A stretch of 59,133 nucleotides of DNA, filler included, from Babesia bigemina (taxonomy: Eukaryota): NCBI RefSeq assembly GCF_000981445.1. It is 10 parts of 10 records of this genome, joined end to end, with 100 filler letters (N's around TTAATTAATTAA, not from the genome) between each part and the next. Parts side by side here need not be neighbours in the genome. Positions count along the whole stretch, not along the records: positions 2,133 to 8,536 come from NW_012237373.1; 9 more parts are not named here. The stretch is one strand, 5' to 3'. The notes under the pieces are model-generated. The model was not told the origin of the DNA, did not search any database, and saw nothing but the letters and a program-made list of their open reading frames with translations. Within the stretch, counting starts at the first letter, position 1; the number at the start of each line of letters is the position of its first letter. The position numbers and the translations under genes are program-made. Shown piece by piece: positions 2,133-56,953 of this stretch.

Positions 2133-2462
2133 AGGGGGCGATTTAGATGGGTTTAGGGAGCGATTTAAGGTGGTTAAGGGGCGATTTTAGAGTAGTTAAA
2201 GGGGCGATTTTGAAGTGGTTTAAGGGCCGATGTAGAGTGGGTTAGGGAGCGATTTTGAGTGGTAAAAGGGGCGATGTAGAGTGGATAAAGGGGCGATGTA
2301 GAGTGGGTTAAGGGGCGATGTAGAGTAAGTAAAGGAGCGATGTGGAGGGGGTTAAGGGAGCGATGTAGAGTGGGTTAGGGAGCGATGTAGAGTGGATAAA
2401 GGGGCGATGTGGAGTGGATTAGGGAGCGATGTAGAGTGGATAAGGGGCGATGTAGAGTGGAT
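2133..2462 (-). repeat. 21-bp satellite A (C-rich strand CCACTCTACATCGCYCCYTWA), degraded near contig end
   Basis: Tandem GCGATGTAGAGTGG-core units on the + strand. Confidence 0.95.
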
Positions 2463-2490
2463 AATAATCATTACTTAGGTCATCTGCTTG

Positions 2491-2638
2491 GTCACCATGT
2501 CATCGCTGCCGTGACCATGTCATCGCTGCCGTGACCATGTCATCGCTGCCGTGTCCATGTCATCCATGCCGTGACCATGACGTCGCTGCCGTAATTATGT
2601 CACCGCTGCCGTGACCATGTCATCGCTGCCGTGACCAT
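2491..2638 (-). repeat. 20-bp satellite B (GTCATCGCTGCCGTRACCAT on +), about 7 units
   Basis: Direct reading of tandem units. Confidence 0.95.
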
Positions 2639-2640
2639 CA

Positions 2641-2795
2641 ACTTGGTCAGGTGGTAGGTCGTGGCATTGGTCACCACGTTGGTCATGGCATTGGTCAGCA
2701 CCTTGGTCAGCACATTGGTCAACACGTTGGTCAACACTTTGGTCAGCATCTTGGTCAGCATCTTGGTCAGCATCTTGGTCAGCACTTTAGTTAAC
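2641..2795 (-). repeat. 12-bp repeat C (TTGGTCAGCACH-like on +)
   Basis: About 12 degenerate units with a TTGGTCA core. Confidence 0.9.
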
Positions 2796-2912: not shown

Positions 2913-5900
2913 TTATGGCTGCAGGTAAAACACTCTGTTAAGCTTGTTAACACGTGCAGCGGCGAGTAGTGATTGAGCAGCAATCCTATGACTCGAGGGA
3001 CTATGTAGATGCGATTTGATGTGGAGGAGGTCTAGGCGGATGACCATGATGTGGATGAGGTACAGGAAAGAGAGGAGCCAGAGGGTAAGGACAAGGTAGG
3101 AGAAGGGTTGTCTGATAGTCCAAATGAAGTTGTCACATTCCTCAAATAATTTGGTGAAATATTGCGATTTTAGTACGTTTTGTAATTGCGCGTACAGGTT
3201 ACGGCAGTATCTTCTTTGATCACCGGATAACAATTTTTTGACGTCGCCAAATGTGAAGCCGTAACTGTATAAAATGCTCATCACACCGCGGCATCCCACC
3301 AGCGATCGGCACTTGCAGCCGTAGCCATCGCCGTGCTTGCCCGGTTTACAAGAGCTGCCGTCGACGCATGTGCTGCATCCCCAATCTTGGCAAGAGATAC
3401 TGCTGAATGAATCAAACAATGATTTAAGATAGTCATACAGTGTCCATGGTAGATAAACGGCCCATGAGAGATACACGTTAGTATGTTTAGCTGCGATGTA
3501 GTAGTACGTGTCGCAGAATAGGGTCTGCAGGTACGGCCCGCAGTGGACGTTATCTTCGATTGCAAGCATACATGACTGACTCATCGCGAGGCTCGACATA
3601 TCAGCCGATTTTGGAATATGATTACTTGCATTATGACTACTCTGACTGTTGCCATAAGCGGCACTAAGCGCACCTGTGAGTTTGGTTGTCTCCTTATATA
3701 AGTCAATGGACAACTGTTTGGTTGTGATTTCAAAAGCCGTTTTGATAGCATCGGTACCAGAATCCGTATTACTATTCAGCACATTAACTAATGAGACGGC
3801 AAAATTGAAGTGCTCGGGTAGCGATGAGGGCGGTTTAGTCATTAAGCAAAATAGCGTTGTTATATATGAGTTTGCGAAGAAATTTTCTAGCATCTCACAT
3901 AATGCTCTACCCGTCTTCTCACTACCAGAAAACCCCCTGAAACCGAGAGGTGTCAAACACGGCATACCCTTCTTAGCTTTCGGGCACGTTGAACATACAG
4001 CTCTACACCCTATGGAACTGACATGATGAGGCAAGTGGCCAGGTAAGCAGTCGTTGAGGTAGCTCATTAAAGGGGAGTTTGGTTGGCAATTTGGTTGGGT
4101 ATTTGCCTGGCACGTTGGCAAACACCCTACTTGGCTCGTTGCTTTGTCTTTTGGGTGCTCGTTACATTGCCATTTAGCTGATGGGACGTTCTGGCCGTAT
4201 ACACAATCGGCCCACCCGTAGTGTTGAGCACCGATGCTACATTGCCTATACAAAAATCTCAGTGGCGGGTACAACCTGCTTAGGACATCCAGTAGCATCT
4301 GGAGGCAATCTTCGCCCTTGGATGGGTAGTGAAAGTTAAGCGAATTGGCGCAGTAGTCGACGGCGTACATGGTATGAGCATTTCCGTAACCGACGATTCT
4401 GGTCAGAACGTCATATGACTTTGAGCACAAACGCATCACCGCTTTCCGTGTATCATCATATAACATGTTGTTTGGATGCGCTGGGAGGAAGTCATCTCTC
4501 ATGTCTGTAACAGTTATCTCAAACCCGTCGAGATCTGCTGCGACCTGTTTATTTGGATCCTCAAATAATTCACTCACAGCATCACGCAGAACTTCTTCAT
4601 AAACGGAACTGCATGGAAGCCCTGACAGCCAACAAAGTATTTCGAACACGTTACATGGCCGCTTCTTGGCAGCAAACGTTGAGACGTGACAGACTTGATA
4701 GTAATCGTTAAGGTGCTCGTTCAGCATCTGAAGCGCAAGTTTGGTGTCTTTATCTGTGTGGTATATATGCTTGTAATCGTCGCTAATCAGAAGCTTTTTG
4801 ATTTTTGTGGCAGCAACGTTCTTATCTAACTCCCCCTTTTGCTTCTCTTTGACGGAGACATCATAGCCTTGATGGTAAAAGAACATTCCAACATCTGTGT
4901 TTTTGTTAATTTTCTGAAATCTCTGTTCCGTATAACAATACTTCTTCAGAACTTTAAAGGCAATGTGCAAGTTAGAGACAACAGTCAAACAGACCTTAGA
5001 CAGCTTTTCACCGTAAGGCGTTAATTTTTCGTTTTGACCAGAATTTTTACCAGCATCATTTTTAACAAGTGGATTTAACGTAAAATTGATTAATGTTCCA
5101 TCATCATACCCGTTCACATACACCCGCTCCATCTGCTCGACAAACCCCTGCAGCCCCGCTCTGACCGCATCGAGCAGCTCCGGGTGCCGGGGGTTGGCGA
5201 AGTGGGAGGGGTGGAGGAGGTGGAGGGAGGAGGAGAGGGATTCATGCTTTTTGGTGTATGTATGATCAAATATATATGTTCTAGAAGGTGTAGAGTCATT
5301 TTTGAGGTGGTCGAGTAATTCGTTGAATTTAGTGTTGACGGCGGTGAGGTGCTGGAGGTTGGTAGCATTGATGCCTTGAAGGGCCTGCGGTTCCGACGCA
5401 ATTTCGGATTTGATTTGGTAATCAGTATACTTATGAATATTAGTGAAATAGGCGTGGAATGCTGTGGAGAGTTCTTTGAATTTCCCAAGATGCTGTGCGC
5501 CCTTAGGTGACGGAGCAAGGGGCTGGGCAAGATTGGAAATTTCGTTAAACAATTCAGTGGGCAAATTATCATCAAAATATGAAGAATGGTCTGGTTTTAC
5601 AGTGTACTTATTACCTCCCATCACTCTCATCAACCCCTTGAACCCGATGCGCAGATCCCTCTCAATCTCCCCCGGCAACCCCTGCAACTCCTGGCTGACC
5701 TTGTCCGCGAACGCGGTGAGCATTAGTTTAGTATGACGAACGTAGCGTTTCCTGAGGTCTGTGATGATTATGTTTTTCGAGTCGGTGATTGCCGAGTTTA
5801 TATACGACTGCAGTCCGCTGACGCATTTGCTACGCAGTCCATCGATTGCGGAAATATATGACTCCACTTCCTGTAACCACGTATCTAATTTGCTTTCCAC

Positions 5901-7523
5901 TTCTTCGGCAACATCGAGTATCCTATTAATGCTTGTAGTTAGCGATCTCATGTTGGTGGGTAAGGTTTTAGTGATGCTTGTAAGCGTTGAGTCTGGTACA
6001 TTCGTATTGGTCGATTGAGTTTTAAGATTCGAAATGTCGTTTTTGATGCCTTGAACTAACTGCCCTATACGCTGTAAATCGCCTTTTGAATTTTCCATGA
6101 ATTTCTCAATATTGATTTTCATAGATCCGTACTTTTTAAGTACCGTATTACCTCTCTCGGCTGCCTTCGCATCAAGCGTCTTAATTACGCTTTCTAAAAC
6201 ATTATTTATGAATTCAGAACAAAGGCCAGCATATGCTTCACCATCACTTAAACTTGTAACGTATTCGTTCATCAATTTTGTGATTTGTATACGCAAGCTG
6301 TCTAGATCTGTCTCTATCGCTTTAGGAAATATTTCTACTGCATTATTTAGATCTTCGGCAAATCCTTCAAGCACTGGTTGGTTTTTCATACGGATACCGA
6401 TGGACATCAAATCATTCAGCGGCTGAACCACCTTTTTTATTTCCGCAAGCGCCGTATGAATCTTAGGATAACGATCTTCGAATATCAAAATATCGTCGCC
6501 GACGTAACTGCGGGATGCTACTAATTTCTCTTTATTGTTCTTAACCCAGTCGCTCAATGGTTGGTAAATGTCTTTTTTCATGGTACTTTGAAATGCGTTC
6601 ATTTTGTTTCTAATATCATTTAATAGAGCCTCCACTTTTGTCCTAGTCTCATCATCGACTTTTCTATGTATGTCATTGCACCTCTCAACAACTTTCTTAA
6701 TGCTGTATTCCAAATCGTGACTCTGATTCTGACACGAAAATTGCAGCACGTCTAATTCACGTTTCATGGCATTTATAGCATTATTAACATTATTACGAGT
6801 GTCGAAATTCAAATCAGCAATCTCAGTCTGCAAAGTCTTAGTAGTCTCGGTGAATCCGACAGTCGCCTTAATTGAATCCTTTAACTTTCGGTTCACGTCA
6901 TCAACCGCTTGCTTAGCGACATCGGCGTCCCCCGTCCTCAGGATCATAGTAGTACCTGCAACAGCATTATCATTTAATATAGCACTTACCTGAGTTTTAA
7001 GCTCTTTCATCTCCCCTTCAAGCTTTTTTATTGGTTGTTTAACTTTCTCATTCCCCTCCTGCACTTCCCTGTTATACCCCGCGATGCGAGCAGGCAACTC
7101 GGTGAAAAGCCTTTTAAAGCCCTCGTGACCTGAGCAAAGATGTTTGTTAATAAGCGTTAAAATGTTGTTAATTAATATATTTTTACCCACACTGTAAGGC
7201 TGTTTCTCGCTGACATCCCTAAGCACCTGATACAAAAATCCCATCACTGCATCACAAAGCCTATCCAAGTCAGAGTACACAATCCCCTGGCCAGTGTAGC
7301 CTTTGGAGTCTTTGTTGAAGCCAAGGAAGGTCTCGAGGCCGGTGCAGAGGTTATTAAGGATGTTAGTAGGGTTGTTATTTGAGGTATTTTTGAGGTTAAA
7401 AATTTTATCAAATTTCTTGTCAAGCTCCCTAGGCGGCCCATGGTCAGGGCAGTGGCAAGAGGTGGAAGAAGGGAGGTGAAGGGTGACAAGGCAGAAGTTA
7501 TTGTCATGGTGGATAGAGGTCAT
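2913..7523 (-). CDS. ves1: ves1b-type variant erythrocyte surface antigen, 1536 aa from the leader ATG; the only copy here that is open from leader to stop
   Basis: Contains LCxGLETFLG..GY.G.GIVYSDLDRLCD, coiled-coil centre, Cys-rich C-domain (SPLMSYLNDCLPGHLPH, GMPCLTPLGFRGF), TM helix (FSYLVLTLWLLSFLYLIHIMVI) and tail RLDLLHIKSHLHSPSSHRIAAQSLL...YLQP. Start moved from TTG 7589 (inside the satellite) to ATG 7523. Confidence 0.85.
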   Translation of the reverse strand: MTSIHHDNNFCLVTLHLPSSTSCHCPDHGPPRELDKKFDKIFNLKNTSNNNPTNILNNLCTGLETFLGFNKDSKGYTGQGIVYSDLDRLCDAVMGFLYQVLRDVSEKQPYSVGKNILINNILTLINKHLCSGHEGFKRLFTELPARIAGYNREVQEGNEKVKQPIKKLEGEMKELKTQVSAILNDNAVAGTTMILRTGDADVAKQAVDDVNRKLKDSIKATVGFTETTKTLQTEIADLNFDTRNNVNNAINAMKRELDVLQFSCQNQSHDLEYSIKKVVERCNDIHRKVDDETRTKVEALLNDIRNKMNAFQSTMKKDIYQPLSDWVKNNKEKLVASRSYVGDDILIFEDRYPKIHTALAEIKKVVQPLNDLMSIGIRMKNQPVLEGFAEDLNNAVEIFPKAIETDLDSLRIQITKLMNEYVTSLSDGEAYAGLCSEFINNVLESVIKTLDAKAAERGNTVLKKYGSMKINIEKFMENSKGDLQRIGQLVQGIKNDISNLKTQSTNTNVPDSTLTSITKTLPTNMRSLTTSINRILDVAEEVESKLDTWLQEVESYISAIDGLRSKCVSGLQSYINSAITDSKNIIITDLRKRYVRHTKLMLTAFADKVSQELQGLPGEIERDLRIGFKGLMRVMGGNKYTVKPDHSSYFDDNLPTELFNEISNLAQPLAPSPKGAQHLGKFKELSTAFHAYFTNIHKYTDYQIKSEIASEPQALQGINATNLQHLTAVNTKFNELLDHLKNDSTPSRTYIFDHTYTKKHESLSSSLHLLHPSHFANPRHPELLDAVRAGLQGFVEQMERVYVNGYDDGTLINFTLNPLVKNDAGKNSGQNEKLTPYGEKLSKVCLTVVSNLHIAFKVLKKYCYTEQRFQKINKNTDVGMFFYHQGYDVSVKEKQKGELDKNVAATKIKKLLISDDYKHIYHTDKDTKLALQMLNEHLNDYYQVCHVSTFAAKKRPCNVFEILCWLSGLPCSSVYEEVLRDAVSELFEDPNKQVAADLDGFEITVTDMRDDFLPAHPNNMLYDDTRKAVMRLCSKSYDVLTRIVGYGNAHTMYAVDYCANSLNFHYPSKGEDCLQMLLDVLSRLYPPLRFLYRQCSIGAQHYGWADCVYGQNVPSAKWQCNEHPKDKATSQVGCLPTCQANTQPNCQPNSPLMSYLNDCLPGHLPHHVSSIGCRAVCSTCPKAKKGMPCLTPLGFRGFSGSEKTGRALCEMLENFFANSYITTLFCLMTKPPSSLPEHFNFAVSLVNVLNSNTDSGTDAIKTAFEITTKQLSIDLYKETTKLTGALSAAYGNSQSSHNASNHIPKSADMSSLAMSQSCMLAIEDNVHCGPYLQTLFCDTYYYIAAKHTNVYLSWAVYLPWTLYDYLKSLFDSFSSISCQDWGCSTCVDGSSCKPGKHGDGYGCKCRSLVGCRGVMSILYSYGFTFGDVKKLLSGDQRRYCRNLYAQLQNVLKSQYFTKLFEECDNFIWTIRQPFSYLVLTLWLLSFLYLIHIMVIRLDLLHIKSHLHSPSSHRIAAQSLLAAARVNKLNRVFYLQP

Positions 7524-7550
7524 AGCGGTATTATGGCGAGGTGATTCAAG

Positions 7551-8536
7551 GGATGTAGAGTGGATAAAGGGGCGATGTAGAGTGGACAAAGGGGCGATGT
7601 AGAGTGGACAAAGGGGCGATGTGGAGTGGATTAAGGGGCGATGTAGAGTGGATAAGGGAGCGATGTAGAGTGGGTAAGGGGCGATGTAGAGTGGGTAAAG
7701 GGGCGATGTAGAGTGGGTAAAGGGGCGATGTAGAGTGGGTTAAGGGGCGATGTAGAGTGGGTTAAGGGGCGATGTGGAGTGGGTTAAGGGGCGATGTAGA
7801 GTGGGTTAAGGGGCGATGTGGAGTGTATAAAGGGGCGATGTGGAGTGGGTTAGGGAGCGATGTAGAGTGGGTTAGGGAGCGATGTAGAGTGGGTTAGGGA
7901 GCGATGTAGAGTGGGTTAGGGAGCGATGTAGAGTGGATAGAGGAGCGATGTAGAGTGGGTAAAGGGGCGATGTAGAGTGGGTTAAGGGGCGATGTAGAGT
8001 GGGTTAGGGAGCGATGTGGAGTGGATAAGGGAGCGATGTAGAGTGGGTTAAGGGGCGATGTAGAGTGGATAAAGGGGCTATGTAGAGTGGACAAAGGGGC
8101 GATGTAGAGTGGATTAAGGGGCGATGTAGAGTGGGTTAAGGGGCGATGTGGAGTGGATAAAGGGGCGATGTGGAGTGGATAAAGGAGCGATGTAGAGTGC
8201 ATAAAGGGGCGATGTAGAGTGGGTAAAGGGGCGATGTGGAGTGGATAAGGGGCGATGTGGAGTGGGTTAAGGAGCGATGTAGAGTGGAGAAAGGGGCGAT
8301 GTAGAGTGCGTTAGGGAGCGATGTAGAGTGGATAAAGGGGCGATGTAGAGTGGGTTAAGGGGCGATGTAGAGTGGGTTAAGGAGCGATGTGGAGTGGGTT
8401 AGGGAGCGATGTAGAGTGGATAGAGGAGCGATGTAGAGTGGATAAGGGAGCGATGTAGAGTGGGTAAGGGGCGATGTAGAGTGGGTAAAGGGACGAGTGT
8501 AGAGTGGGTAAAGGGGCGATGTAGAGTGGTTAAGGG
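7551..8536 (-). repeat. 21-bp satellite A directly upstream of the ves leader, at least 46 units, runs off contig
   Basis: Tandem units. Confidence 0.97.
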
Positions 8537-8636: not shown

Positions 8637-9310
8637 CTTATCACCCTACATCGCTCCTTTATCCACCTTACATCGCCCCTTTATCCACTCTACATCGCTC
8701 CTAATCCACTCCACATCGCCCCTTTATCCACTCTACATCGCCCCTTTATCCACTCTACATCGCCCCTTTATCCACTCTACATCGCCCCTTTATCCACCTT
8801 ACATCGCCCCTTTATCCACTCTACATCGCCCCTTTACCCACTCTACATCGCTCCCTAACCCACTCTACATCGCTCTCTAACCCACTCTACATCGCTCCCT
8901 AACCCACTCTTCATCGCCCCTTCACCCACTCTACATCGCCCCTTAACCCACTCTACATCGCTCCCTAATCCACTCTACATCGCCCCTTATCCACTCCACA
9001 TCGCCCCTTAACCCACTCTACATCGCCCCTTAACCCACTCCACATCGCCCCTTTATCCACTCTTCATCGCTCCCTAACCCACTCCACATCGCCCCTTTAT
9101 CCACTCTACATCGCCCCTTAACCCACTCTACATCGCCCCCTTATCCACTCTACATCGCCCCTTATCCACTCTACATCGCTCCCTAACCCACTCTACATCG
9201 CTCCCTAATCCACTCTACATCGCCCCTTAATCCACTCTACATCGCCCCTTATCCACTCTACATCGCTCCCTAATCCACTCTACATCGCTCCCTAACCCAC
9301 TCTACATCCC
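8637..9310 (+). repeat. 21-bp satellite A upstream of the ves leader
   Basis: Tandem CCACTCTACATCGC units. Confidence 0.97.
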
Positions 9311-9336
9311 TCGAATTACCTCGCCATAATACCGCT

Positions 9337-12863: not shown

Positions 12864-12945
12864 CTAAACGTTCTGCTGTCACTATCGTAATACACATAGC
12901 GTTGTCTGCTAACGTTTTGTGAGCGACATTCCCTTTTGCGTAACA

Positions 12946-14388: not shown

Positions 14389-14548
14389 CAGCAATTTAGC
14401 TGTACATTTCGATCGTGTTGCTGTCAAATAATCGCCATATAACAATTTTGAATGCCTAATCTCCATCGTTTTTCACTTTTGGGTTGCTCAGGTGTTCATA
14501 TTTGCCAAGGCACCGTCCTGAGATCACTGCGTCGTTTTTGCGTGTAAT

Positions 14549-18347: not shown

Positions 18348-18363
18348 AATAATCACCACTTCG

Positions 18364-19233: not shown

Positions 19234-22200
19234 TTATGGTTGCAGATAAAACACTTTGCCCAGTTTGTTAACACGTGCTGCGGCGAGTAGTGATTGAGCG
19301 GCTATACGATGACTCGAGGGACTATGTAGATGCGATTTGATGTGGAGCAGGTCGAGGCGGATGACCATGATGTGGAGGAGGTACAGGACAGAGAGGAGCC
19401 AGAGAGCGAGGACAAGGTAGGAGAAGGGTTCGCGGATTCTCCACAGTAACATGTCGCATTGCTTAAATAGGTCAGTGAAATAGTCGGAGTTAACAACATT
19501 GTACAGGTGACTTCGCATGTTGAAGCAGTTTCTTTTTAACGATATCAAATTCTGCGCATCCCTGAATGTGAAACCGTATTGGTATAACGTTGGCGATACG
19601 CCGTTGCAATGCACAACGGAAGTACATTGGCAACCCGTTCCTTTCTCCGCCGGATTAAGCATACCATGACTCTCTCCCTTGCATATATCGGTATGCAAGC
19701 AGTTCCTGCATCCCCAGTCTTCACATCTTATAGCCTTAAACGCGTCGAGGAGACTTGCAAGATATTTATGGAATGTCCACGGCAAGTAAACTGCCCATGA
19801 CAGGTACGAGTTAGATTGCTTGTTGACAAGGTAATGATAAGTGTCGCAGCTTAGGGGGGATAGGTACGGGACGCAGTGCTCCTGAGTGATGCAGGAATTG
19901 GTCAGTGAAATGCACGACAGATTAAGTTTATTGTTGGTACGATTCGGGCTGCGATGCTCGGTTGGTGTATTGCCATAGGCTTTACACATCGGTGTTGTCA
20001 ACTCATCCGTATTTTCATACAGCTTGATGGAGCTAGCGTTAATAGAATTTGCGATGGTGTCTGCCAATGTTTTAATGCCGTCAACCTTACTCTGCTTTGA
20101 AGCACTAAGTCCCTTGGCAAGTGACACTGCAAACTGGAAGTGCTCCGGCAAGTTAGTTGGAGGCCTGGGTGCGAGGGTGAATAGACACGCAATAATACCG
20201 TTGCCTAATATCTCTTTAATAATGCGGCATAATTGTTCACCCGTTTTAATTGACCCAGAAAAGCCTCTGAATCCAAGGGGCGTTAAGCATGGCATTCCAG
20301 GCTTATTACCGGGGCACGTTTTGCATTCGGATTTACAACCGACATTCGTGAGCTGATGAGGCAAGTGACCCGGCAAACAGTCATTTAAGTAACTCATCAA
20401 CGGAGAGGTTGGCTGGCAATTTGGTTGACTGTTTGGTTGACTGTTTGGTCGGCACTTTGGTTGACACTTTGCCTGGCACGTTACTTCCTCCGTTGATCTG
20501 TCGTTACAATGCGATTTGGTCGTAGGCACATTTTTACCGTACTGGCAGTCCGCCCAACCGAACTCCATGGCCGAATAACTACACTTGGATTCGAGGAATC
20601 GGAACACGGAGAGCAATCTACGAAGCATGTCGACTAACATTGGCAAGCAGTCGTCCGCCGTCTTAGGGTAATGCAGCTTGAGGGAATTGTTTGCGTATTC
20701 GCAGGCGTACCTGGTGTGCTCATCACCTGTGCCGGCGATTCTAGCCAACACGTCGTATGATTTGGAGCAAATTAGTTCAATCACAGCATAGATATCTTTA
20801 TATGTGAACTTATGTGGATGCGCATCCAGGTAGTACGCGTTTTCATCATCGAACTCAATTTCAATTCCCGAGTCACCGCTATCTATGGCTTGCTTCTTAG
20901 GTTTATCAAGCAGCTTGGTGATGCCGCCAGGTAACGCTGAATATACGGTACTATGAGGGAGCCCTGAGAACCAGCAGAGTATTTCGTATATACTGCACGG
21001 ATGCCTTTTGGAGAATAACGTTGATAGATGACATACTTCGTTATACTCGTCGAGGTGACTGTAGAGGCATGCTATGAAATCCATGATATTAAAGTTCCAT
21101 TCTTTCTCCCGTGATCTACACTGCGGAACGTGTTCTAGATTCGACATTTGTATGATCTTACCGAGAATTCCATCGATATGTTTGCCAGTGAACGTATGTC
21201 TGCACTGCAGCTCCCCGTCCTGATGCGACTTCTGACTGGTAGGAACAATGTAACCGCACTGCTTGAGGAACTCACCAAGAGGGTTTTCTTTATCAATTTC
21301 ATCTTTAAGATGTATAGCTTTCTTGCTCCAACTACCCTCGCACCTCCTCTTCAACTCCCCGAGGTCCTCCACCCACATCGGCAGGCAGCTCATAAACACC
21401 TTGGCGCAGCGCGTAGCGTCGGCGGCTGTCTCCTGTTTGCCGCCCTTTACCTCCTCCCAAGTAATTCCCTTACTACCACAATACCTATTAACATACGCCT
21501 TTTCCATCTCCTTTACCAGCCCTTGCATCCCTGCCTTCAGCGCATCCAGGAGTTGCGGGTGGTGCGGGTTCGCGAAGGTAGCGGGGTCGAACGAGGACAG
21601 GGTGGAGGTCAGGTCGTGGAGGAGGGAGCGGAAACCGGAGTCAAAGGTGAAGGTGCGTTTGTTGTCGTGGAGGTGGGACAGGAGGGCGTGGGTGCGGGCT
21701 TGGAGGCCGGCGACCAGTTGGGAGGAGGGGGTGGGGGTGAGTTGGGAGGTGATGTAGGTAAAGAGGGGATGTAAGTAATGTCTAATTTTATCTGCTGTCC
21801 ATTTTGACTCTTGTACGCCCGTAAGTTCCGTAAGTGTTTTGTGATTTTGATTCATGTACCAGAGCAGGCACTTGATACCGCTGGCTCTGTCCTCGTCGAT
21901 GATGTGATCGATGGCGGAAATTTGAGTGGAGACGAGGGATCTGAGGGCTTCTAAGTCCGATTTGTGTTGGATGGCATACATTTTTCTCACATGGGTAGTG
22001 ACGACGGTAAAGGCAGATTCGGCTTTAGTGAGGAGGGTTGTTTTGAGTTCTGAGACAGCTTTAACAAGCGACGTTTTGGCAGTTTTTGAAGTTTCTCGTA
22101 AAGCTTTTATGGCATCTTGTAGAGCGCCGTCAGCAAGTTCTACAGCTTCACTAATGGCTCTTACTTTTGTTTTAATCTTACTTCTCAAGACCTCCATCTT

Positions 22201-25200
22201 CTGTAAAGCATTCTGCCTAGCATTGTCGACTTTTTTTGGAAGTGATTCTAAATCGTTGATTATGCTATTCATATATCGTGCATTGGTGTTTGACGTGACT
22301 TGTGAAACTCTTTTCTGTAGCGCTTCAAGGTTACTATATATATCGGTCAGTTTATCCACTTCGTCAGGGTATATACCATTATCGTCACCAACCATGGCTC
22401 CGAGTTTTGCCAAATGGTAACTAAGACTATTGTTTTTTCCCCCATCGCTCTTCTCGACCAAATCCTTAACGGCGCCGGTAAATTCGCTGAGTCGAGTGTA
22501 CACCGCTAGAAGGGCATCGGAGAGTACAGTTGCAGTAATAAATTCGGTACCATTGTTATTCAACGCTCCTGTTACTTTTGTTTCAATATCCCTAATTTTC
22601 CGGGGCAGTGTGCCTCCCAGCTTATCGAGTGGACCCGAAAGGCTGGATTGAGTAATTTGGCGTTCATAATTTAGAAAAACTCCAGCCTTTAAACTGACGC
22701 TGTTGGTTGTATGATCGTCGCCAATGGCGGCATTAAGTTTTCCGTATACATCACTTTCAAAGGCTGACTTTCCTAGCTTACCGCTGAGACCATCGTAGGC
22801 GCCTTTAAAAGCATTCATGAGGCCATCTCTACCATTTATCTGTATATCATTTTTGCCAGTACCTGGAATATGTTTTTCAACTTCCGCAGCGACATCCTTG
22901 TCGGCGTTATACATTGAAAGATCAACCGAGGTGCCATCTGCGGATACAAGAGTGGCGGAACCAGAGACAATTCCAGTATGGCGGTCACTTTGAGCTTCAA
23001 CAAGATTATTGAGAAGAGTCTCCGCTGTTTTGTAAGCGTCGTCCACATTCACAATTTTTGATTGCTTTAGTTGGTCCTGGAGATCGGTAAACGCTTTCAA
23101 CTCCGTGGCGGCTTGATTGGCTGTGTATTACAGCGCTATTACAATGTAACGGACGGCAGCCTGAAGATAGTTTTTCAGAGTTCGTGTTTTGTTAGCCTTT
23201 TTCACTGCTTTATCTTCGATTGCATCCACTATGCCATCGACAAACGCATCGCTACTAGCGGTGACATTCATAATTGTTATTTGATCATTAAGCTTCCTCG
23301 CAAACCCACTTATGCAAGCGTGTATTTTTTGAACGCATTTCGAGATGTCATCATCGTCAGAAACTGAAGTGAAAGTGAAAGCTCCTGAGATCCCCTTCAG
23401 CTTGTTCTTGATCTGCACTGCGATGTCATTGATTCTTCCCGATTCTATGGCACAATTATTCTCGTTCACATATTGCGGCTCGAAATACTCCCTTCCCTTG
23501 TTCTTTTGAACGTACTGCTCAATATATTTTCTCACCACGTTATTATTTTTTAAAATGTTTTCTAACCATATTATCACCGTATTCTCAAACCCTGTTGTCT
23601 GCTTGAACTGCTTTGCATACGTCGAAGTGACGTGTTTCACATATCCGTGCAAACCGTTGCCATTTCCATCATTGCCCTTAATAGCGCTAACTTGCGTCTG
23701 AATTGTTTTGAGAAGATTCTTAACATGGTTTTGCAAACTACTGACAAGCTTCATTTCTAAGCCATGTAAATCCCCTTTCACATTATTTTCTAGACCATCC
23801 CAATACTGTGTCTTCAAAAGATTGACATGACTCCAAATTTCATCTCTTATTCTCCCTTTCACAATTCGTAAATCTTTCTTAAGCTCCTCGTCCATTGTCT
23901 TAACAGCCTGTAATGCCACATTAATACTACTTGTAAGTGCTTTCTTAGCCTCCGCTATGGACGTCATAAATCTATCAGCCTTTTCTTTTAGATTATCAGC
24001 TGCGAATTGAACTTTTTGATATTCCGCACTTGAGAGCCTATCTTTGTCTAGTTTCATGATAATGTCACCAATCTTTGTTTTCACTGCATAAACGACATCT
24101 TGCGCCTTTTTTTTCCATTCATTCAACTTGCGATTCTCCGTTACCATGTCCACACGAATGTGCGTCGTATCCATCATCATTGCGCTGAATTTCTGCTTCA
24201 GGTTAGAATCGGATGTTTCAGTGCTCGTAATATCACTCATTTGGTCGTTCACATCTGCAAAGAGTTTTTCGATTTCATTTCTGTAATCGTTGCTAAATTC
24301 GTCATGTAAAAACGCATCAGCTTCTTTCAATTTTTCGTGGATACCTTGAAACTGATCTTTTTTCTTATCTTCCAAAGCGGAGACGCTTCGACGAATTTTA
24401 TATAATTCCTTATGCACATCATCTCCGACTTTTTCACACACCTGATCGACGTGTTTCTTAACGTCATTCCTTTGCCACTCCAACTCTGCGTCCACCCTCT
24501 GCACCTGTGTCAACAAATCCGGATTTTTTGCAGATTTATTTAACATTTCTACCGATTTCTTAACAATCTTTATCTCATTCATTACGTTGGTTTTTAACGA
24601 TTTATCAAGCTCACTAATTTTATCTTCTTCAATTTGGCTGACGTCAAAGTCAATGTTACCGATAACCTCCGACCAAGTCGACAGCTGATCAGTGAGGGAA
24701 GAGTTTTCATTAATTTTATTTTTGTAATTACCGTTCATATTATTAATTAACCAAGTTAATTCATCTGTTACTTTTTTGGTTTTATCATTTATCTCCCTCT
24801 CATACCCCTCCAACCACTCCTTCACCGCGCCGACAGCATCCGCAAGCCCTTCACGCCCGGAGCCAATTTTACTATCTACAAGTTTGAGAACACTTTTAAG
24901 CTTTTTAGTGTCTCCACTGATGTAATTATCATAAGTTGTCACCTCATTTTCGTTTTTCACCGCATCAAGCACACCACTCAAAAACGCCATCACCCCGTCA
25001 CACAGCCTGTCCAGGTCGGAGTACACAATCCCAGTGCCATCGTAGCCTTTGGAAGCAGAGTTGAAGCCGAGGAAAGTCTCGAGGCCAGTGCAAAGGTTAG
25101 TAAGGATGTTAGTAGGGTTGTTATTTGAGGTATTTTTGAGGTTCAAAATTTCATCGAATTTCTTGCCAGGCTCCCTAGGCGGCACACGGTCAGGGCAGTG

Positions 25201-25269
25201 GCAAGAGGTAGAAGAGAGGAAGTGAAGGGTGACAAGGCACAAGTTATTAGGATGGTTTATAGAGGTCAT
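19234..25269 (-). pseudogene. ves1: Full-length ves1b-type gene (2011 codons) with a single in-frame TAA at 23130..23128
   Basis: ORFs 23128..25269 and 19234..23100 are in the same frame (offset 2169 nt). Reads AVRYIVIAL*YTANQAATELKAF versus AIRALLTALQSTVQRINDELQTF in the 29829 paralog. C-terminal TM and tail are intact. Confidence 0.85.
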
Positions 25270-25296
25270 AGCGGTATTAAGGCGAGGTAATTCAAG

Positions 25297-25907
25297 GGAT
25301 GTGGAGTGGGTTAAGGGAGCGATGTAGAGTGGGTTAGGGAGCGATGTAGAGTGGGTTAAAGAGCGATGTAGAGTGGATAAAGGGGCGATGTAGAGTGGAT
25401 AAAGGAGCGATGTAGAGTGGATAAAGGGGCGATGTAGAGTGGGTTAAGGAGCGATGTAGAGTGGGTTAAGGAGCGATGTAGAGTGGGTTAAGGGGCGATG
25501 TAGAGTGGGTAAAGGGGCGATGTAGAGTGGGTTAGGGAGCGATGTAGAGTGGATTAAGGGGCGATGTAGAGTGGGTTAAGGGGCGATGTAGAGTGGGTTA
25601 AGGGGCGATGTAGAGTGGGTAGAGGAGCGATGTAGAGTGGGTTAAGGGGCGATGTAGAGTGGATAAGGGAGCGATGTAGAGTGGATAAAGGGGCGATGTA
25701 GAGTGGATAAAGGAGCGATGTAGAGTGGATAAAGGGGCGATGTAGAGTGGGTTAAGGAGCGATGTGGAGTGGATAAGGGGCGATGTAGAGTGGATTAAGG
25801 GGCGATGTAGAGTGGATAAAGGGGCGATGTAGAGTGGGTTAAGGAGCGATGTAGAGTGGGTTAAGGAGCGATGTAGAGTGGGTAAAGGAGCGATGTGGAG
25901 TGGGTAA
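25297..25907 (-). repeat. 21-bp satellite A, complete array of about 29 units
   Basis: Both ends visible within one contig. Confidence 0.97.
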
Positions 25908-25929
25908 TAATCACCACTTAGGTCACCAC

Positions 25930-27871
25930 TGTCATCGCTGCCGTAACCATGTCATCGCTGCCGTGTCCATGTCGTCGCTGCCGTGTTGATGTCATCGCTG
26001 CCGTGACCATGTCATCGCTGCCGTGACCATGTCATCGCTGTCGTAACCATGTCATCGCTGCCGTGACCATGTCATCGCTGTCGTAACCATGTCATCGCTG
26101 CCGTAACTATGTCATCGCTGCCGTAACCAAGACATCGCTGCCGTAACCAAGACATCGCTGCCGTGACCATGTCATCGCTGTCGTAACCATGTCATCGCTG
26201 CCGTGACCATGTCATCGCTGTCGTAACCATGTCATCGCTGCCGTAACCAAGACATCGCTGCCGTAACCAAGACATCGCTGCCGTGACCATGACATCGCTG
26301 CCGTGACCATGTCATCGCTGCCGTAACCAAGACATCGCTGCCGTGACCATGACATCGCTGCCGTGACCATGTCATCGCTGCCGTAACCATGTCATCGCTG
26401 CCGTGTCCATGTCATCGCTGCCGTGACCAAGACATCGCTGCCGTCACCACTGTCATCGCTGCCGTAACCATGTCATCGCTGCCGTGTCCATGTCGTCGCT
26501 GCCGTGTTGATGTCATCGCTGCCGTGACCATGTCATCGCTGTCGTAACCATGTCATCGCTGCCGTGACCATGTCATCGCTGTCGTAACCATGTCATCGCT
26601 GCCGTAACTATGTCATCGCTGCCGTAACCAAGACATCGCTGCCGTAACCAAGACATCGCTGCCGTGACCATGACATCGCTGCCTCAACCATGTCATCGCT
26701 GCCTCAACCATGTCATCGCTGCCTCAACCATGTCATCGCTGCCGTGACCGTGTCATCGCTGCCGTGACCATGTCATCGCTGTCGTAACCATGTCATCGCT
26801 GCCGTAACTATGTCATCGCTGCCGTAACCAAGACATCGCTGCCGTAACCAAGACATCGCTGCCGTGACCATGACATCGCTGCCTCAACCATGTCATCGCT
26901 GCCTCAACCATGTCATCGCTGCCTCAACCATGTCATCGCTGCCGTGACCGTGTCATCGCTGCCGTGACCGTGTCATCGCTGCCGTGACCATGTCATCGCT
27001 GCTGTAGCCATGTCATCGCTGCCGTGACCATGACATCGCTGCCGTGACCATGTCATCGCTGCCGTGTCCATGTCGTCGCTGCCGTGTTGATGTCATCGCT
27101 GCCGTGACCATGTCATCGCTGTCGTAACCATGTCATCGCTGCCGTGACCATGTCATCGCTGTCGTAACCATGTCATCGCTGCCGTAACTATGTCATCGCT
27201 GCCGTAACCAAGACATCGCTGCCGTAACCAAGACATCGCTGCCGTAACCATGTCATCGCTGCCGTGACCGTGTCATCGCTGCCGTGACCATGTCATCGCT
27301 GCCGTAACCATGTCATCGCTGCCGTAACCATGTCATCGCTGCCGTGACCGTGTCATCGCTGCCGTGACCATGTCATCGCTGCTGTAGCCATGTCATCGCT
27401 GCCGTGACCATGACATCGCTGCCGTGACCATGTCATCGCTGCTGTAGCCATGTCATCGCTGCCGTGACCATGACATCGCTGCCGTGTCCATGTCACCGCT
27501 GCCGTGTCCATGTCATCGCTGCCGTAACCATGCCATCGCTGCCGTAACCATGTCATCGCTGCCGTTGCCATGTCATCGCTGCCGTGACCAAGACATCGCT
27601 GCCGTAACCATGTCATCGCTGCCGTAATTATGTCATCGCTGCCGTGACCATATCATCGCTGCCGTGTCCATGTCATCGCTGCCGTGACCAAGACATCGCT
27701 GCCGTGACCATGTCATCGCTGCCGTGACCATGTCATCGCTGCCGTAACCATGTCATCGCTGTCGTAGCCATGTCATCGCTGCTGTGTCCATGTCATCGCT
27801 GCTGTGTCCATGTCATCGCTGCTGTGTCCATGTCATTGCTGCCGTGTCCATGTCATCGCTGCAGTAACCAT
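25930..27871 (-). repeat. 20-bp satellite B, about 97 units with higher-order duplications
   Basis: Tandem units; variant blocks recur. Confidence 0.97.
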
Positions 27872-27873
27872 CA

Positions 27874-27980
27874 ACTTGGTCAGGTGCTTGGTCAGCACTT
27901 TGGTCACCACTCTGGTCATGGCATTGGTCAGCACTTTGGTCAGCCACTAGGTCACTCACTGCTCATGTGATTGGTCAGCA
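27874..27980 (-). repeat. 12-bp repeat C (TTGGTCA core)
   Basis: About 7 degenerate units. Confidence 0.85.
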
Positions 27981-29828: not shown

Positions 29829-32800
29829 TTACGGCTGTAGATACGATATCTTGGCAAGCCTTCCGACTTGCGCTGCCGCCAACAATGATTGCGCCGTTAT
29901 CCTGTGCGACGACGGTGTTCGCAGGTGTGAGCGTATGTGGAGCACATCCAGTCTGCCAACCATTACGCAAATGAGGTAGAAGAGGGACAGTGACCAGAGC
30001 GCGACGTTCATCCACAAGAAAGGTGCGCGGATGGTGAACATGAATTTATCAATGGCTTTGAAAAACTGCACAAGATGTGAGTCCTTCTCAAATGCCTCCG
30101 CAAATACATAGCAGAAATCTCTGCACGTGCGTTTCTTCTCAATGCCTGCGCTTCCGTTCAGCCTCTCTGGATCGCCGAGAACGAAGCCGTACTTCGCCAA
30201 TGTCGGCAGCGTAGCATTGCACTGTACAATGGATTTGCAATTGCGATCGTGATATCGTGGCGGATCTTTTTTGGATGTAGTAGGACACCCCTTGATGCAC
30301 GATTTACCATGGCAATTCGATCCCCTGGCACCGCATTTGGAATTGCACTCATCATACAATTTCTTAAGCAGATCGTAGAACGATGCCGTCAGGTAAACGA
30401 TCCACGACAAATACTTATCGGCGTGTTTTGACGAGAACGTCTCGTAGATGGCGTGAGTGATGGGCCGCAAATAAGGACCGCATACTACGGCGTCCCTTGA
30501 TAAGCATACGAGACTGCCCAGGCTACCATCGGAGTGGCCCTTCTTCAATGCTGAGTGACTAGGGGTAAATAAGTGGTAGACGTTCAACTCACCATAACTA
30601 CGTCCGAAATTGGCTGCTTTAACTTTCTCCTCAAATGCCTCTTTCTTGTGTTTGTTACCGTGCATACCCCAGCGATCGGTGAGGTGATAGTAGAAGCTGA
30701 ACATGTCCGTTAGTGTTTTCGGAGCACTGGGTAGCAGGCAGTTGAGGTAACCGCACAGTCTAGTGAGAGGGGAGTTAGGACGGCCACAAAAATCGTAAAG
30801 CACCTCGCATATATTGCGGCCCATCATCGTATGCGACGCGGTGGCACCGATGTCAGCGAAGCCCATCGGAGTTCGGCACGGCATACCAGGTGTACTACCA
30901 CACGTGCCACATGACAGACTGGATCCCCTAGCCGTAACCGAATGCGGCAGGTGGCCTTTCAAACCGTCCTCCAAGAACGATTGCAGTGGCGACTTGACGC
31001 CGCAGTTGGGATATTGGCCACCCGTTTGGTTGCCACTTTGGTCATGCCGTTGGTCGCAGTCTTGCTTAGGGCACTGCTTCGTGTTGCACTGCCAGCCCGA
31101 CCCACCGATGTACCTGCCGTAGTGGCAGTCCCTCCAGCCGCTGAGCTGAGTTGTAAGTTGACACTGCTGCAGCAGGAAGTACAGCTGGTGGTAGAGGCGC
31201 TTGAGCAGGTCGAACAACGTACACAGTAACTGAATCATGCTGGTTGGGTAATCTAACTTGAGCGAGTTGTCGGAGAATTCACACGCGTAGATTCCGTCCT
31301 TGTGACCGTGGCCTAGTATAGCAGTGAGGACGGCGTGGGAGTGGGCAGACACATTGTAGAGCTGCTTTTCGACGTCAGTGTATTTGACAGGTGACGGGTG
31401 CGCTTCGAAGGGCTGCAGCGTTTTAGTACCCGGCCTTTGCTTGTCCTCCTTCATGAACTCAGATTCAACGTGCTTCTTGAACCTCTCGTACACGGGGTTG
31501 AACTGCAGGCCGCAGCACCAGACGAGAATTTCGTAAACGGAGCAAGGAGCCCGGGGTTTCTCAATACGAGTAAGGTGGCATACGGTGAAGTAATCGTGTA
31601 GACTTGAATATAGCTTTTGAACGACGCCATCATCCGTGGCGACCTCTACGGTCAGGTCAGCAGAACCATCGGTACGGAGAAGTGAGGCATCCGCGGGCTC
31701 ACCTGCGACGAACAACTTATGTTCAGCGTTTGTGAGATGTTTGAGAATGCTGCTACCGTTGAAGTCTTGTCTGTGATTCAGCTCGCCATATGGAATGGTC
31801 GGCTGAGCACCAATGTCGTAACCCTGATCATGGAAGAATGTTTTGTGCAAACTATGATTGGGGTTCGTGGAATCGTACATTTTGTAGCTTTCCCAGCCTT
31901 CAGCATCAAGTCCAGATTTGAGGTGATCAAGTGCAGTGTATACAATGGGAATCATGCTTAGACACACCATTGCGCCACGTTTTCCGTCAAGTGTTAATTC
32001 GACATCTTTCTGTTTCGCACTTTCGGATGATGCCTTATCCTTCAGTGTGTCGACGGTAGTTGTCGTTTTAGATTTTTCGGAATCAGGCAGCTCTATCACC
32101 CAGTGCTTGATGGGCTTCGCTCCTTCGTACATGTTTATGTAGGTCTTGTCAAGCTCGCCAACCAGACCCATAAAACCTAATCTTAGAGCGTCTAGAATTA
32201 ATGCGGAAGACTCACAGAGCTTGTCGGATGTCAAGCCGCCAAGTGCCTTTCTAAGCCTGTTTAGGTAGTCCATGAACGTCCTATCATACCGCTGCGAATC
32301 TTCGATGGCAGTAAGCAGCATACGCAATGCGTCGTGTGACGGGTTGGCTTTACCAAAATTGTACGTAAGATCCGGCTGTTTAGCTAGATAATGGAAGAGA
32401 CGCTTTAATGCTCCGTAAAGTTTCGTTGATGCTTGGCTAAGCGGCGATTTTTGTCCAGGGGAAGCTTTATCCGGAATCTTTTTCAAGGCCTGCAAACCTT
32501 TCTCGTGCTTGAGGAACTGAGTGTCCATTATGCTCATAAACCCCTTAAATCCGGACTCCGACTCTTTAGTGATCAACCCAGGCAGCGGTTGTAATTCCGT
32601 CTCAGCTTTTGTTGAAAAAGCCACGAGCAGACCTTGTAGAGATGTAACGTACTGCTTTCTGGCTTGTGTGATTAAAGTCCTCTTAGCGCTCTCCACTTGT
32701 GAATCGACGTCTCTTCCTAGTGCCTGGATGGTGGCGGTACCGGAGTGGTCTACAGTTCCAAGAAATTTTTTGGCAGCATCCAGGGCTACTGCGACCGGAT

Positions 32801-35114: not shown

Positions 35115-35141
35115 AGCGGTATTATGGCGAGGTAATTCGAG

Positions 35142-36169
35142 GGATGTAGACTGGATAGAGGAGCGATGTAGAGTGGATAAAGGGGCGATGTAGAGTGGGT
35201 AAAGGGGCGATGTAGAGTGGGTTAAGGGGCGATGTGGAGTGGATTAGGGAGCGATGTGGAGTGGGTTAAAGAGCGATGTAGAGTGGGTAAAGGAGCGATG
35301 TAGAGTGGGTTAGGGAGCGATGAAGAGTGGGTTAAGTAGCGATGTAGAGTGGGTTAGGGAGCGATGTAGAGTGGGTTAGGGAGCGATGAAGAGTGGATAA
35401 GGGAGCGATGTAGAGTGGGTTAGGGAGCGATGTGGAGTGGATAAAGGGGCGATGTAGAGTGGATAAGGGGCGATGTGGAGTGGGTTAGGGAGCGATGTAG
35501 AGTGGGTAAAGGGGCGATGTAGAGTGGATAAAGGGGCGATGTAGAGTGGATAAAGGGGCGATGTAGAGTGGGTTAGGGAGCGATGTGGAGTGCGTTAAGG
35601 GGTGATGGAGAGTGGGTTAAGGGGCGATGTAGAGTGGGTTAAGGGGCGATGTAGAGTGGATAAAAGGGCGATGTAGAGTGAATAAAGGGGCGATGTAAGG
35701 TGGGTTAAGGGGCGATGTAGAGTGGTTTAAGGAGCGATGTAGAGTGGTTTAAGGAGCGATGTGGAGTGGGTAAAGGGGCGATGCAGAGTGGGTTAAGGAG
35801 CGATGTAGAGTGGATAAAGGGGCGATGTAGAGTGGGTTAGGGAGCGATGTAGAGTGGATAAAGGGGTGATGTAGAGTGGGTTAGGGAGCGATGTAGAGTA
35901 GGTAAAGGGGCGATGTAGAGTGGGTAAGGGAGCGATGTAGAGTGGATAAGGGGCGATGTGGAGTGGATAAAGGGGCGATGTGGAGTGGATAAAGGGGCGA
36001 TGTAGAGTGGATAAAGGGGCGACTAAAGGAGGTTAAGGGGCGATGTAAGGTGGATAAAGGGGCGATGTAGAGTGGGTTAGGGAGCGATGTAGAGTGGGTA
36101 AAGGGGCGATGTAGAGTGGGTTAGGGAGCGATGAAGAGTGGGTAAGGGAGCGATGTAGAGTGGGTAAAG
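35142..36169 (-). repeat. 21-bp satellite A upstream of the ves leader, runs off contig
   Basis: Tandem units. Confidence 0.97.
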
Positions 36170-56951: not shown

Positions 56952-56953
56952 CA

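What the first reader, a model, noticed from the sequence alone, without database searches (positions are those of the whole stretch)
7551..8536. 21-bp satellite with telomere-like GGGTTAGGG and G4 potential abuts every ves 5' end in a fixed orientation
Seen: all six visible ves 5' ends (ATG 7523, 9337, 25269, 35114, 37784, 51759) lie within about 30 nt of a 0.6-2 kb array, always with the C-rich strand as sense. Many units carry two G-tracts (GGGTTAGGG, GGGTTAAGGGG), so two units supply four tracts. Known: repeats or G4 upstream of variant antigens drive switching elsewhere (T. brucei 70-bp repeats, Neisseria pilE G4). Inference: the satellite is a conversion boundary, a break-prone site or a heterochromatin nucleator for ves.
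Basis: partly seen in the sequence, partly recalled or inferred. Interest (0 to 1): 0.75.

Follow-up and report, generated by a model that had tools for sequence, protein, structure and literature searches.

The report
Repeat caps on headless surface-antigen genes
In the cattle parasite Babesia bigemina a 22-base DNA repeat ends exactly 28 bases in front of six surface-antigen (ves1b) gene copies that lack the family's normal front end, and it likely marks a chromosome-end archive of spare gene bodies rather than a four-stranded-DNA switch.

Summary
The placement is real and tighter than reported: a 22-bp (not 21-bp) satellite ends 28 nt before the same leader ATG at 6 of 6 loci, C-rich strand as sense, and the junction recurs in two other studies' DNA. 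But these are not ordinary ves 5' ends. All six lack the canonical ves1b N-terminus (first ~110-140 residues); 4 of 6 have a stop within 44 codons of the ATG while the bodies stay open. Where visible, the 22-mer is the last block of a 12-/20-/22-mer spacer between head-to-tail copies. Annotated relatives lie on unplaced contigs or at chromosome ends, pointing inward, so the G-strand likely faces the telomere. Bodies intermix with full-length ves1b, and similarity breaks at a shared coding block, not at the repeat. G4 support is modest: 42% of units carry two G3 tracts, not clustered beyond chance; the Babesia telomere unit TTTAGGG occurs twice. Best reading: a telomere-associated spacer co-amplified with an archive of truncated ves1b donors (0.55). 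Against 'silent': published proteomics assigns peptides to such genes. The window is joined contigs (7 of 8 arrays end at a contig edge) and includes cattle DNA.

The parts
7545..8536 (-). 22-bp satellite array (43 units counted), C-rich strand = sense of the adjacent gene; runs into the contig end
7380..7551 (-). Fixed junction, 28-nt spacer and ~48-codon leader (ATG 7523) that replaces the canonical ves1b N-terminus
   Evidence: junction seen in runs X1 and X2
2913..7523 (-). 5'-truncated ves1b-like gene, 1536 codons, the only one of the six open from leader ATG to its stop
2133..2785 (-). Downstream compound spacer in gene sense: 12-mer (2643-2785), 20-mer (2494-2638), junction, 22-mer (2133-2462, cut by contig edge)
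8537..8636 (.). Artificial contig spacer; the two flanking arrays are not shown to be neighbours
8637..9315 (+). 22-bp array (30 units), starts at contig edge
9337..12763 (+). 5'-truncated ves1b-like gene; in-frame stops at codons 33 and 42, then open to the contig end
18271..19108 (-). Compound spacer: 12-mer (18930-19108), 20-mer (18366-18921), junction, 22-mer (18271-18349, cut)
19234..25269 (-). 5'-truncated ves1b-like gene; one in-frame stop at codon 714
25291..27960 (-). The only complete spacer: 12-mer (27888-27960), 20-mer (25925-27871, 97 units), junction, 22-mer (25291-25906, 27 units)
29829..35114 (-). 5'-truncated ves1b-like gene; in-frame stop at codon 42, then open to codon 1761
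35136..36169 (-). 22-bp array (45 units), runs into contig end
36270..37784 (-). 5' part of a truncated ves1b-like gene; in-frame stop at codon 40; cut by contig edge
37806..38643 (-). 22-bp array (37 units), runs into contig end
49785..51737 (+). 22-bp array (88 units), starts at contig edge
51738..52079 (+). Second leader type: leader ATG 51759 (stops at codons 44, 53), a diverged second leader copy (ATG 51895), joining the ves1b profile further upstream (node ~110) in another frame

Best explanation
The 22-bp satellite is the gene-proximal block of a 12-/20-/22-mer spacer fused, through a fixed leader, to ves1b copies that lack the canonical N-terminus, and this unit likely forms head-to-tail arrays at B. 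bigemina chromosome ends that would act as a mostly silent archive of donor gene bodies. Shown: the junction, the spacer order at 3 sites, the missing N-terminus, the stops in the leader, the mixing of bodies with full-length genes. Inferred: one old fusion of a telomere-side satellite to a broken ves1b was amplified by subtelomeric recombination; bodies are swapped between these slots and full-length ves1b through the conserved ~43-residue block (codons ~54-96) and the C-terminal domain; the satellite works like a telomere-associated repeat (silencing and pairing of chromosome ends), not as the break or boundary of conversion.
For: Array ends 28 nt before the ATG in 6 of 6; same 20-mer/22-mer junction at 3 of 3 visible far ends. 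Junction present in two runs of different studies: loose ends at 7547 read as the 22-mer in 3 (X1) and 5 (X2) contigs. A profile of 28 canonical N-termini matches the window copies only from node ~138-146 (two type-A copies tested) or ~110 (51759) of 193; tblastn of five canonical N-termini finds no hit below E 0.05 in the window. Among the 120 listed homologs, 27 have the canonical start, 24 the leader, none both. Stops: 4 in 240 leader codons versus 1 in 6715 body codons of the five collinear copies, Fisher P 7e-6. Leader-type proteins lie on chromosome-sized records in 2 of 24 cases against 14 of 17 canonical B. bigemina ones (P 2e-6); the two are BBBOND_0212310 (near the right end of chromosome II) and BBBOND_0300010 (first gene of chromosome III; tied by accession order and mass), both pointing inward; 19 of 19 large unlabelled terminal genes seen in Table S1 of PMC4066756 point inward (only 4 tied to my homolog set). 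C-terminal tree: leader label needs 15 changes, shuffled mean 16.0. Identical blocks of 20 or more residues: leader-canonical 24 of 432 pairs, leader-leader 17 of 276, canonical-canonical 4 of 153; longest coverage 444 residues. Identity between copies falls from 86-93% to ~50% at nt ~288, the end of a block 84% identical to canonical genes. Precedent: truncated B. bovis ves1 were proposed as functional pseudogenes for segmental conversion (PMC2034396).
Against: Published proteomics of another isolate assigns peptides to leader-type models: BBBOND_0300010 has 5 peptides (3 used for quantitation) and iBAQ 11,090, above the top gene labelled VESA1B (8,525); BBBOND_0212310 has 6 (1). Mosaic expressed genes would explain this, but so would direct expression. 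One of six copies (7523) is fully open, 24 annotated relatives have an open leader, and the leader still shows pN/pS 0.51 (domain 0.27). Stops could partly be errors in unplaced contigs. Low placement on chromosomes is partly circular, since arrays break assemblies. The tree is the quick IQ-TREE search only, and one window protein (P0121) was mislabelled 'other' by my pattern. No evidence on chromatin or transcription was obtained; the silencing role rests on analogy.
Confidence: 0.55

Rival explanations
1. Neutral hitchhiker: the satellite and leader are a decayed spacer copied along with tandem subtelomeric duplications and have no function of their own; the cassettes may still donate sequence.
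For: All six junctions descend from one event. Unit variation looks like simple haplotype drift: double-tract units 121 observed versus 121.3 expected, no clustering (349 of 2000 permutations as high). The exchange boundary lies in coding sequence. None of the 38 B. ovata homologs has the leader, so the unit may be young.
Against: The 28-nt spacing, leader and block order are kept across copies whose bodies are only ~50% alike and scattered over the tree, and across isolates; this needs either selection or frequent homogenisation.
Confidence: 0.25
2. The leader-type genes are an expressed ves1b subfamily with a new N-terminus; the array supplies the promoter or 5' UTR.
For: Peptides assigned to BBBOND_0300010 and other terminal genes; 7523 gene open over 1536 codons and 24 annotated relatives start at the leader ATG; pN/pS 0.51 in the leader; in B. 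caballi the dominant ves1c transcript is from a near-telomeric gene (PMC10463595).
Against: 4 of 6 window copies have a stop within 44 codons while bodies stay open; the peptides came from a different isolate than the gene models, so they need not come from these loci; only 28 nt separate array and ATG.
Confidence: 0.12
3. One reading: the G-rich strand folds into G4 and triggers breaks or bounds conversion for ves switching, as at Neisseria pilE or the T. brucei 70-bp repeats.
For: 27 of 33 relaxed motifs (loops up to 12) lie in the arrays; two arrays exceed shuffles for that motif (13 and 1 of 200); the second tract is kept in 236 of 286 units by two alternative haplotypes; G4 enrichment near ves loci was proposed for B. 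bovis (PMC9047050).
Against: Strict motifs 2 in arrays, 4 outside; mean G4Hunter ~1.0 with coverage at 1.2 not above shuffles in 7 of 8 arrays; every two-unit G4 needs an 11-12-nt loop and is predicted at only -1.3 to -2.0 kcal/mol on a free strand; 139 of 286 units lack the first tract; the repeat sits at the truncated copies, while pilE's G4 sits at the expression locus (PMC4412290); similarity breaks ~290 nt inside the gene.
Confidence: 0.08

Closest known systems
[quoted passage not shown]
   Same: Ordered series of distinct non-coding repeat blocks in fixed orientation on the telomere side of variant-antigen genes; candidate heterochromatin landmark.
   Different: There the blocks occur once per chromosome end and SPE2 lies ~2.2 kb upstream of intact, expressible genes; here the block series is repeated in front of each tandem copy, ends 28 nt from the leader, and the genes are 5'-truncated. 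No binding protein is known here.
Truncated Babesia bovis ves1 genes proposed as functional pseudogenes for segmental gene conversion (PMC2034396 passages; PMC6630957 passages)
   Same: Same gene superfamily; truncated copies outside head-to-head loci as likely donors.
   Different: B. bovis subtelomeres are described with genes within 2-3 kb of the telomere repeat and on both strands; I saw no satellite cap or common truncation point described. Here a shared leader and satellite mark every truncated copy seen.
Trypanosoma brucei 70-bp repeats upstream of archival VSGs (PMC4858185, abstract read)
   Same: Oriented repeat directly upstream of archived variant-antigen genes.
   Different: 70-bp repeats lie both in the expression site and at donors and supply the upstream homology for whole-gene conversion. 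Here full-length ves1b carry 110 or more extra codons where the satellite sits, so it cannot abut the shared block in them; homology is supplied by coding sequence.
Neisseria gonorrhoeae pilE G4; G4 motifs near P. falciparum var and B. bovis ves (PMC4412290, PMC9047050, passages read)
   Same: G-tract-bearing DNA next to variant-antigen genes.
   Different: pilE G4 is one 16-bp element at the expression locus with a tested requirement; here the tracts are polymorphic, long-looped and at the truncated copies.
BbigVes1b family (PMC4066756)
   Same: Conserved internal block and VESA-type C-terminal domain with transmembrane segment; bodies intermix on the tree.
   Different: Canonical N-terminus absent; the paper's proteomics table labels the two chromosome-placed leader-type genes 'hypothetical protein' and 'undefined product', while the 7 of 18 BbigVes1b rows I could tie to my homologs are all canonical.

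Membership tests
BbigVes1b | Conserved VESA C-terminal domain with transmembrane helix | tested here: met
   Three complete window genes end in the same domain as canonical BbigVes1b proteins; leader and canonical types interleave on its tree.
BbigVes1b | Canonical N-terminus (MAPKKLTDCPENLRE..IDWLIQV type, as read from the homologs) | tested here: not met
   Absent from the window. The copies are truncated derivatives, not canonical members.
BbigVes1b | Pfam VESA1_N (PF12785) at the curated cut-off | tested here: not met
   Only 16.8 bits against a cut-off of 22, in 1 of 6 ves-like frames scanned; the model is rarely hit in this family (1 of 120 homologs), so this is weak.
B. bovis-type locus of active transcription (LAT) | Divergent ves pair sharing a short bidirectional promoter | tested here: not met
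   The only head-to-head appearance (7523/9337) straddles a contig spacer; within the 17.9-kb contig all genes are head-to-tail.
Telomere-associated repeat elements (TARE-like) | Ordered distinct repeat blocks in fixed orientation | tested here: met
   12-mer, 20-mer, 22-mer in the same order at 3 of 3 visible sites.
Telomere-associated repeat elements (TARE-like) | Subtelomeric position | tested here: inconclusive
   Inferred from the two chromosome-placed leader-type genes and 19 inward-pointing terminal genes; no DNA linking an array to a telomere was seen.
Telomere-associated repeat elements (TARE-like) | H3K9me3/HP1 heterochromatin or a sequence-specific binder | not testable with these tools
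   No chromatin data available here.
Telomeric repeat | Tandem TTTAGGG units (Babesia; PMC10463595) | tested here: not met
   TTTAGGG 2 times in 6521 array bases; TTAGGG 78 times, as part of a 22-bp unit.
70-bp-repeat-type conversion boundary | Same repeat upstream of both expression site and donors | not testable with these tools
   No DNA of canonical loci held. Canonical proteins extend 110 or more residues where the repeat sits.
70-bp-repeat-type conversion boundary | Exchange boundary falls in the repeat | tested here: not met
   Identity among five copies stays 86-93% for ~290 nt past the ATG and then drops to ~50%. Indirect: no switch junctions were seen.
pilE-type G4 switch element | Conserved short-loop four-tract motif | tested here: not met
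   2 strict motifs in 8 arrays; tract positions polymorphic.
pilE-type G4 switch element | Folds in vitro and is required for switching | not testable with these tools
   Only a marginal ViennaRNA prediction.

The most novel reading that the evidence does not exclude
B. bigemina has built a dedicated, telomere-polarised archive of dozens of headless ves1b cassettes, each capped by its own satellite block that silences and pairs chromosome ends, and this unrecognised compartment, left out of the ves1b label in the reference proteome, supplies (or itself expresses) the most abundant VESA-like protein: a VSG-style archive in an apicomplexan.
Probability: 0.22. Interest if true: 0.75.

Novelty: new variant of a known kind. 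Interest (0 to 1): 0.48.

Why it matters
How B. bigemina varies its surface antigen is open: only 35% of its ves1 genes are in head-to-head pairs and no VESA1A was detected (PMC4066756). A marked class of truncated chromosome-end copies gives a concrete donor pool and a concrete way to tell donors from expression-competent genes (leader plus satellite versus canonical first exons). It also explains why the chromosome ends of this genome do not assemble, warns that many annotated starts in this family are probably not real starts, and suggests that the published VESA1 abundance ranking missed a class of genes. If the array is only a hitchhiker it remains a useful species marker and assembly landmark.

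Tried and rejected
Whole-genome co-location: no genome is held, so not run. Head-to-head LAT reading of 7523/9337: rejected, contig spacer. CCCTAA run at 52914-52964 as a parasite telomere: rejected, it lies in cattle LINE/SINE DNA. Idea that the 20-mer is a decayed copy of the missing N-terminal exon (its translation resembles the canonical WLIQVRHG stretch): not supported, 16 of 300 shuffled units score as high, and the antisense 22-mer does equally well (17 of 300). Splice acceptor in the leader as a way round the stops: rejected by inspection, the stops at codons 33-42 lie downstream of the candidate acceptor. RNA: no RNA holder listed; of four runs guessed to be RNA, X6 gave one contig on the conserved block only, X7, X10, X12 gave none: no evidence either way. 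Second lay on the 3' flank: covered in X2 and X3, but no listed loose end showed the 12-mer (34 rows not shown): inconclusive. Summed contig depths were not used as copy numbers. Satellite pattern in metagenome contigs: 0 matches. Naming the 28078-28671 relic: no hit at E 0.001 among longer proteins; the atlas did not answer. Family clusters for BBBOND tags in the B. ovata supplements: no hits. Earlier scan findings: none in three look-ups. The careful tree did not finish; the quick tree is reported.

Full report
What the window is. The window is ten contigs joined by nine identical spacers of 44 N, TTAATTAATTAA, 44 N. The first eight are Babesia bigemina: the gene at 2916-7523 is 100% identical over 54% of its length to a B. 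bigemina protein, and all 120 listed homologs are B. bigemina (82) or B. ovata (38); five frames are RAP-1. The last two contigs (52180-59133) are host DNA with a reverse transcriptase that I recognise from memory as a bovine BovB LINE with SINEs; the CCCTAA run at 52914 lies there. No whole genome is held. Some public homologs are probably the window's own loci (P0121 is listed as such; P0069 ends like the 29829 gene), so they are not independent.

The observation. Tandem Repeats Finder and my own unit split give a period of 22 bp: 263 of 286 units, with 17 of 21 bp. There are eight arrays; seven end at a contig edge, so only 25291-25906 is complete. Six abut the same leader, and the last unit ends exactly 28 nt before the ATG in 6 of 6, C-rich strand as sense; the other two are cut by a contig edge on the side where a leader would follow. 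No unit with up to four mismatches lies outside the arrays. At the 3 sites where the far side is visible, the order in gene sense is: 3' end of the previous gene, 12-mer array, 20-mer array, a fixed short junction, 22-mer array. The junction with the leader is not an assembly artefact: in two DNA runs from different studies the loose ends beyond position 7547 read as the 22-mer (3 contigs in X1, 5 in X2; 75 further loose-end rows were not shown). The apparent head-to-head pair at 7523/9337 straddles a spacer and means nothing.

The genes are headless. Their C-terminus is the VESA-type domain of BbigVes1b. But 27 of the 120 homologs begin with a canonical N-terminus and 24 with the window's leader; none has both (69 start elsewhere and were left unclassified; my pattern missed the window's own P0001/P0121). 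Five canonical N-termini find nothing below E 0.05 in the window, and a 193-node profile of 28 canonical N-termini matches the window copies only from node 138-146 (7523 and 25269 tested) or 110 (51759). The leader ATG is doubtful as a start: in-frame stops fall at codons 33 and 42 (9337), 42 (35114), 40 (37784), 44 and 53 (51759); 25269 has one at codon 714; only 7523 is open throughout. In the five collinear copies that is 4 stops in 240 leader codons against 1 in 6715 body codons (Fisher P 7e-6). pN/pS is 0.51 in the leader and 0.27 in the following block, which is mixed: relaxed but below 1.

Where such genes lie. Read from the record lengths, 2 of 24 leader-type proteins are on chromosome-sized records against 14 of 17 canonical B. 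bigemina ones (P 2e-6); this is partly circular because arrays break assemblies. The two placed ones are BBBOND_0212310, seven accessions before the first chromosome III gene, and that first gene, BBBOND_0300010 (tied to P0013 by accession order and by mass, 236,049 against 236,055). In Table S1 of Jackson et al. 2014 (PMC4066756) the 19 large unlabelled genes I retrieved by searching terminal locus tags all point inward from the assembled ends, with gaps of about 1-5 kb between consecutively numbered neighbours, like the 2.8-kb spacer here; I could tie only 4 of the 19 to my homologs, and the canonical BBBOND_0300080 points outward. If the arrays precede these genes as in the window (inferred through the leader, not seen), the G-rich strand runs toward the telomere, the polarity of telomeric DNA. 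The same table labels 18 rows BbigVes1b; the 7 I can tie to my set are all canonical, while the two leader-type genes are 'hypothetical protein' and 'undefined product'.

Exchange of bodies. On a tree of 63 C-terminal domains (18 leader, 15 canonical, 24 other, 6 of 23 B. ovata rows; quick search, the careful one did not finish) the leader label needs 15 changes against 16.0 for shuffled labels (165 of 500 as low), so leader-type genes are not a clade. Identical body blocks of 20 or more residues are shared by 24 of 432 leader-canonical pairs, 17 of 276 leader-leader pairs and 4 of 153 canonical pairs; at 30 residues 5, 5 and 1; the largest shared coverage is 444 residues (the three largest cases involve canonical genes on unplaced records). 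Among the five collinear window copies identity is 86-93% from the array to nt 288 and about 50% after; the last 43 residues of that stretch are 84% identical to canonical genes, against 86% among the copies. The swap point therefore appears to be this coding block, which donors and full-length genes share, not the satellite, which stands where full-length genes have 110 or more further codons.

G4. For: 27 of 33 motifs with loops up to 12 in the parasite contigs lie in the arrays, which are 12.7% of the bases; two arrays beat shuffles for this motif (13 and 1 of 200); the second tract is kept in 236 of 286 units through two alternative haplotypes; Allred 2022 (PMC9047050) reports such motifs enriched near B. 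bovis ves loci. Against: strict motifs (loops up to 7) are 2 inside and 4 outside; mean G4Hunter is about 1.0, and the share of windows at 1.2 or more (0.16-0.30) is no higher than in shuffles (0.22-0.30) for the seven arrays over 300 bp; three of the most variable positions (13, 17, 20) make or break the tracts; two-tract units number 121 against 121.3 expected, and neighbouring pairs 53 of 278 against 48.8 (349 of 2000 permutations as high); the folding program gives -1.3 to -2.0 kcal/mol for a free strand, a rough figure. For sense transcription the G-rich strand is the template. The Babesia telomere unit is TTTAGGG (PMC10463595; PMC2034396) and occurs twice in 6521 array bases. Weak G4 folding is possible, but nothing suggests selection for it.

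Mechanism. Most likely (0.55) the spacer and leader are the fixed telomere-side cap of tandem subtelomeric slots, each holding a ves1b body that is kept open and is exchanged with full-length genes through conserved coding blocks; the satellite would act as telomere-associated repeats do in P. falciparum (PMC2829057), in silencing and end pairing. The anatomy is shown (about 0.85); subtelomeric position and donor role are inferred; silencing is analogy only. The main result against: peptides from another isolate were assigned to these models, BBBOND_0300010 with iBAQ 11,090 above the top labelled VESA1B at 8,525. The table rows I saw give no peptide sequences, so mosaic origin and direct expression cannot be told apart. 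Rivals: neutral hitchhiker 0.25, expressed subfamily 0.12, G4 switch 0.08.

Novelty. Eight searches of the held library listed no paper describing this satellite or this gene class, judged by titles and abstracts and by the papers opened. What I saw: PMC4066756 passages, sections 13, 21, 22 (part 1 of 2), 23, the legends file and searches of the table (figures and supplement file 1 not seen; Figures 3 and S1 may show the class); PMC9047050, PMC4412290, PMC5660447, PMC10463595, PMC6630957, PMC2034396 passages; PMC2829057 abstract and passages; PMC4858185 abstract. Older work on repetitive DNA probes of B. bigemina (recalled, not in the library) may have cloned the repeat. Each ingredient has precedent (TAREs, truncated ves1 donors, repeats upstream of archival VSGs); their combination in Babesia appears undescribed.

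Noticed in passing
window 28078-29682 (-): A short relic ending in a transmembrane-like C-terminus that I recall as ves1a-type (unconfirmed; one search found no hit), with a 76-bp repeat made of GT..AG intron-like units, preceded by a 24-bp array instead of the 22-mer; so not every ves-like 5' end here has the satellite.
   Followed up: partly
window 52180-59133: Two contigs of cattle host DNA (reverse transcriptase hit; BovB LINE and SINE identity recalled) with a CCCTAA run at 52914-52964: contamination in the parasite assembly.
   Followed up: partly
window 12864-18170 and 38744-49684: Pieces of the tandem rap-1 locus, copies 98-100% identical; both contigs end inside a further rap-1 copy.
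   Followed up: partly
PMC4066756 Table S1, BBBOND_0300010 and 18 other terminal genes: Large inward-pointing terminal genes carry peptide matches but are not labelled ves1b; one outranks the top labelled VESA1B by iBAQ.
   Followed up: partly
window 51738-52079: The leader itself is duplicated (second, diverged copy 136 nt downstream), and many annotated relatives start with peptides from this second type, so there are at least two truncation points.
   Followed up: partly
window 25925-27871 (-): The 20-mer translates to a stretch resembling the canonical WLIQVRHG motif in the orientation and place of the missing exon; 16 of 300 shuffles score as high, so unproven.
   Followed up: yes
window 21675-21746, 28636-28995, 5182, 5643: The strongest short-loop G4 motifs of the parasite contigs lie inside ves1b bodies and the relic, not in the satellite.
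   Followed up: no
window 7230-7380 (-) and the like block in each copy: As I recall, the widely used SpeI-AvaI diagnostic PCR for B. bigemina targets sequence like this conserved ves1b block, which would explain its multicopy sensitivity; not tested (search 55 returned nothing).
   Followed up: no
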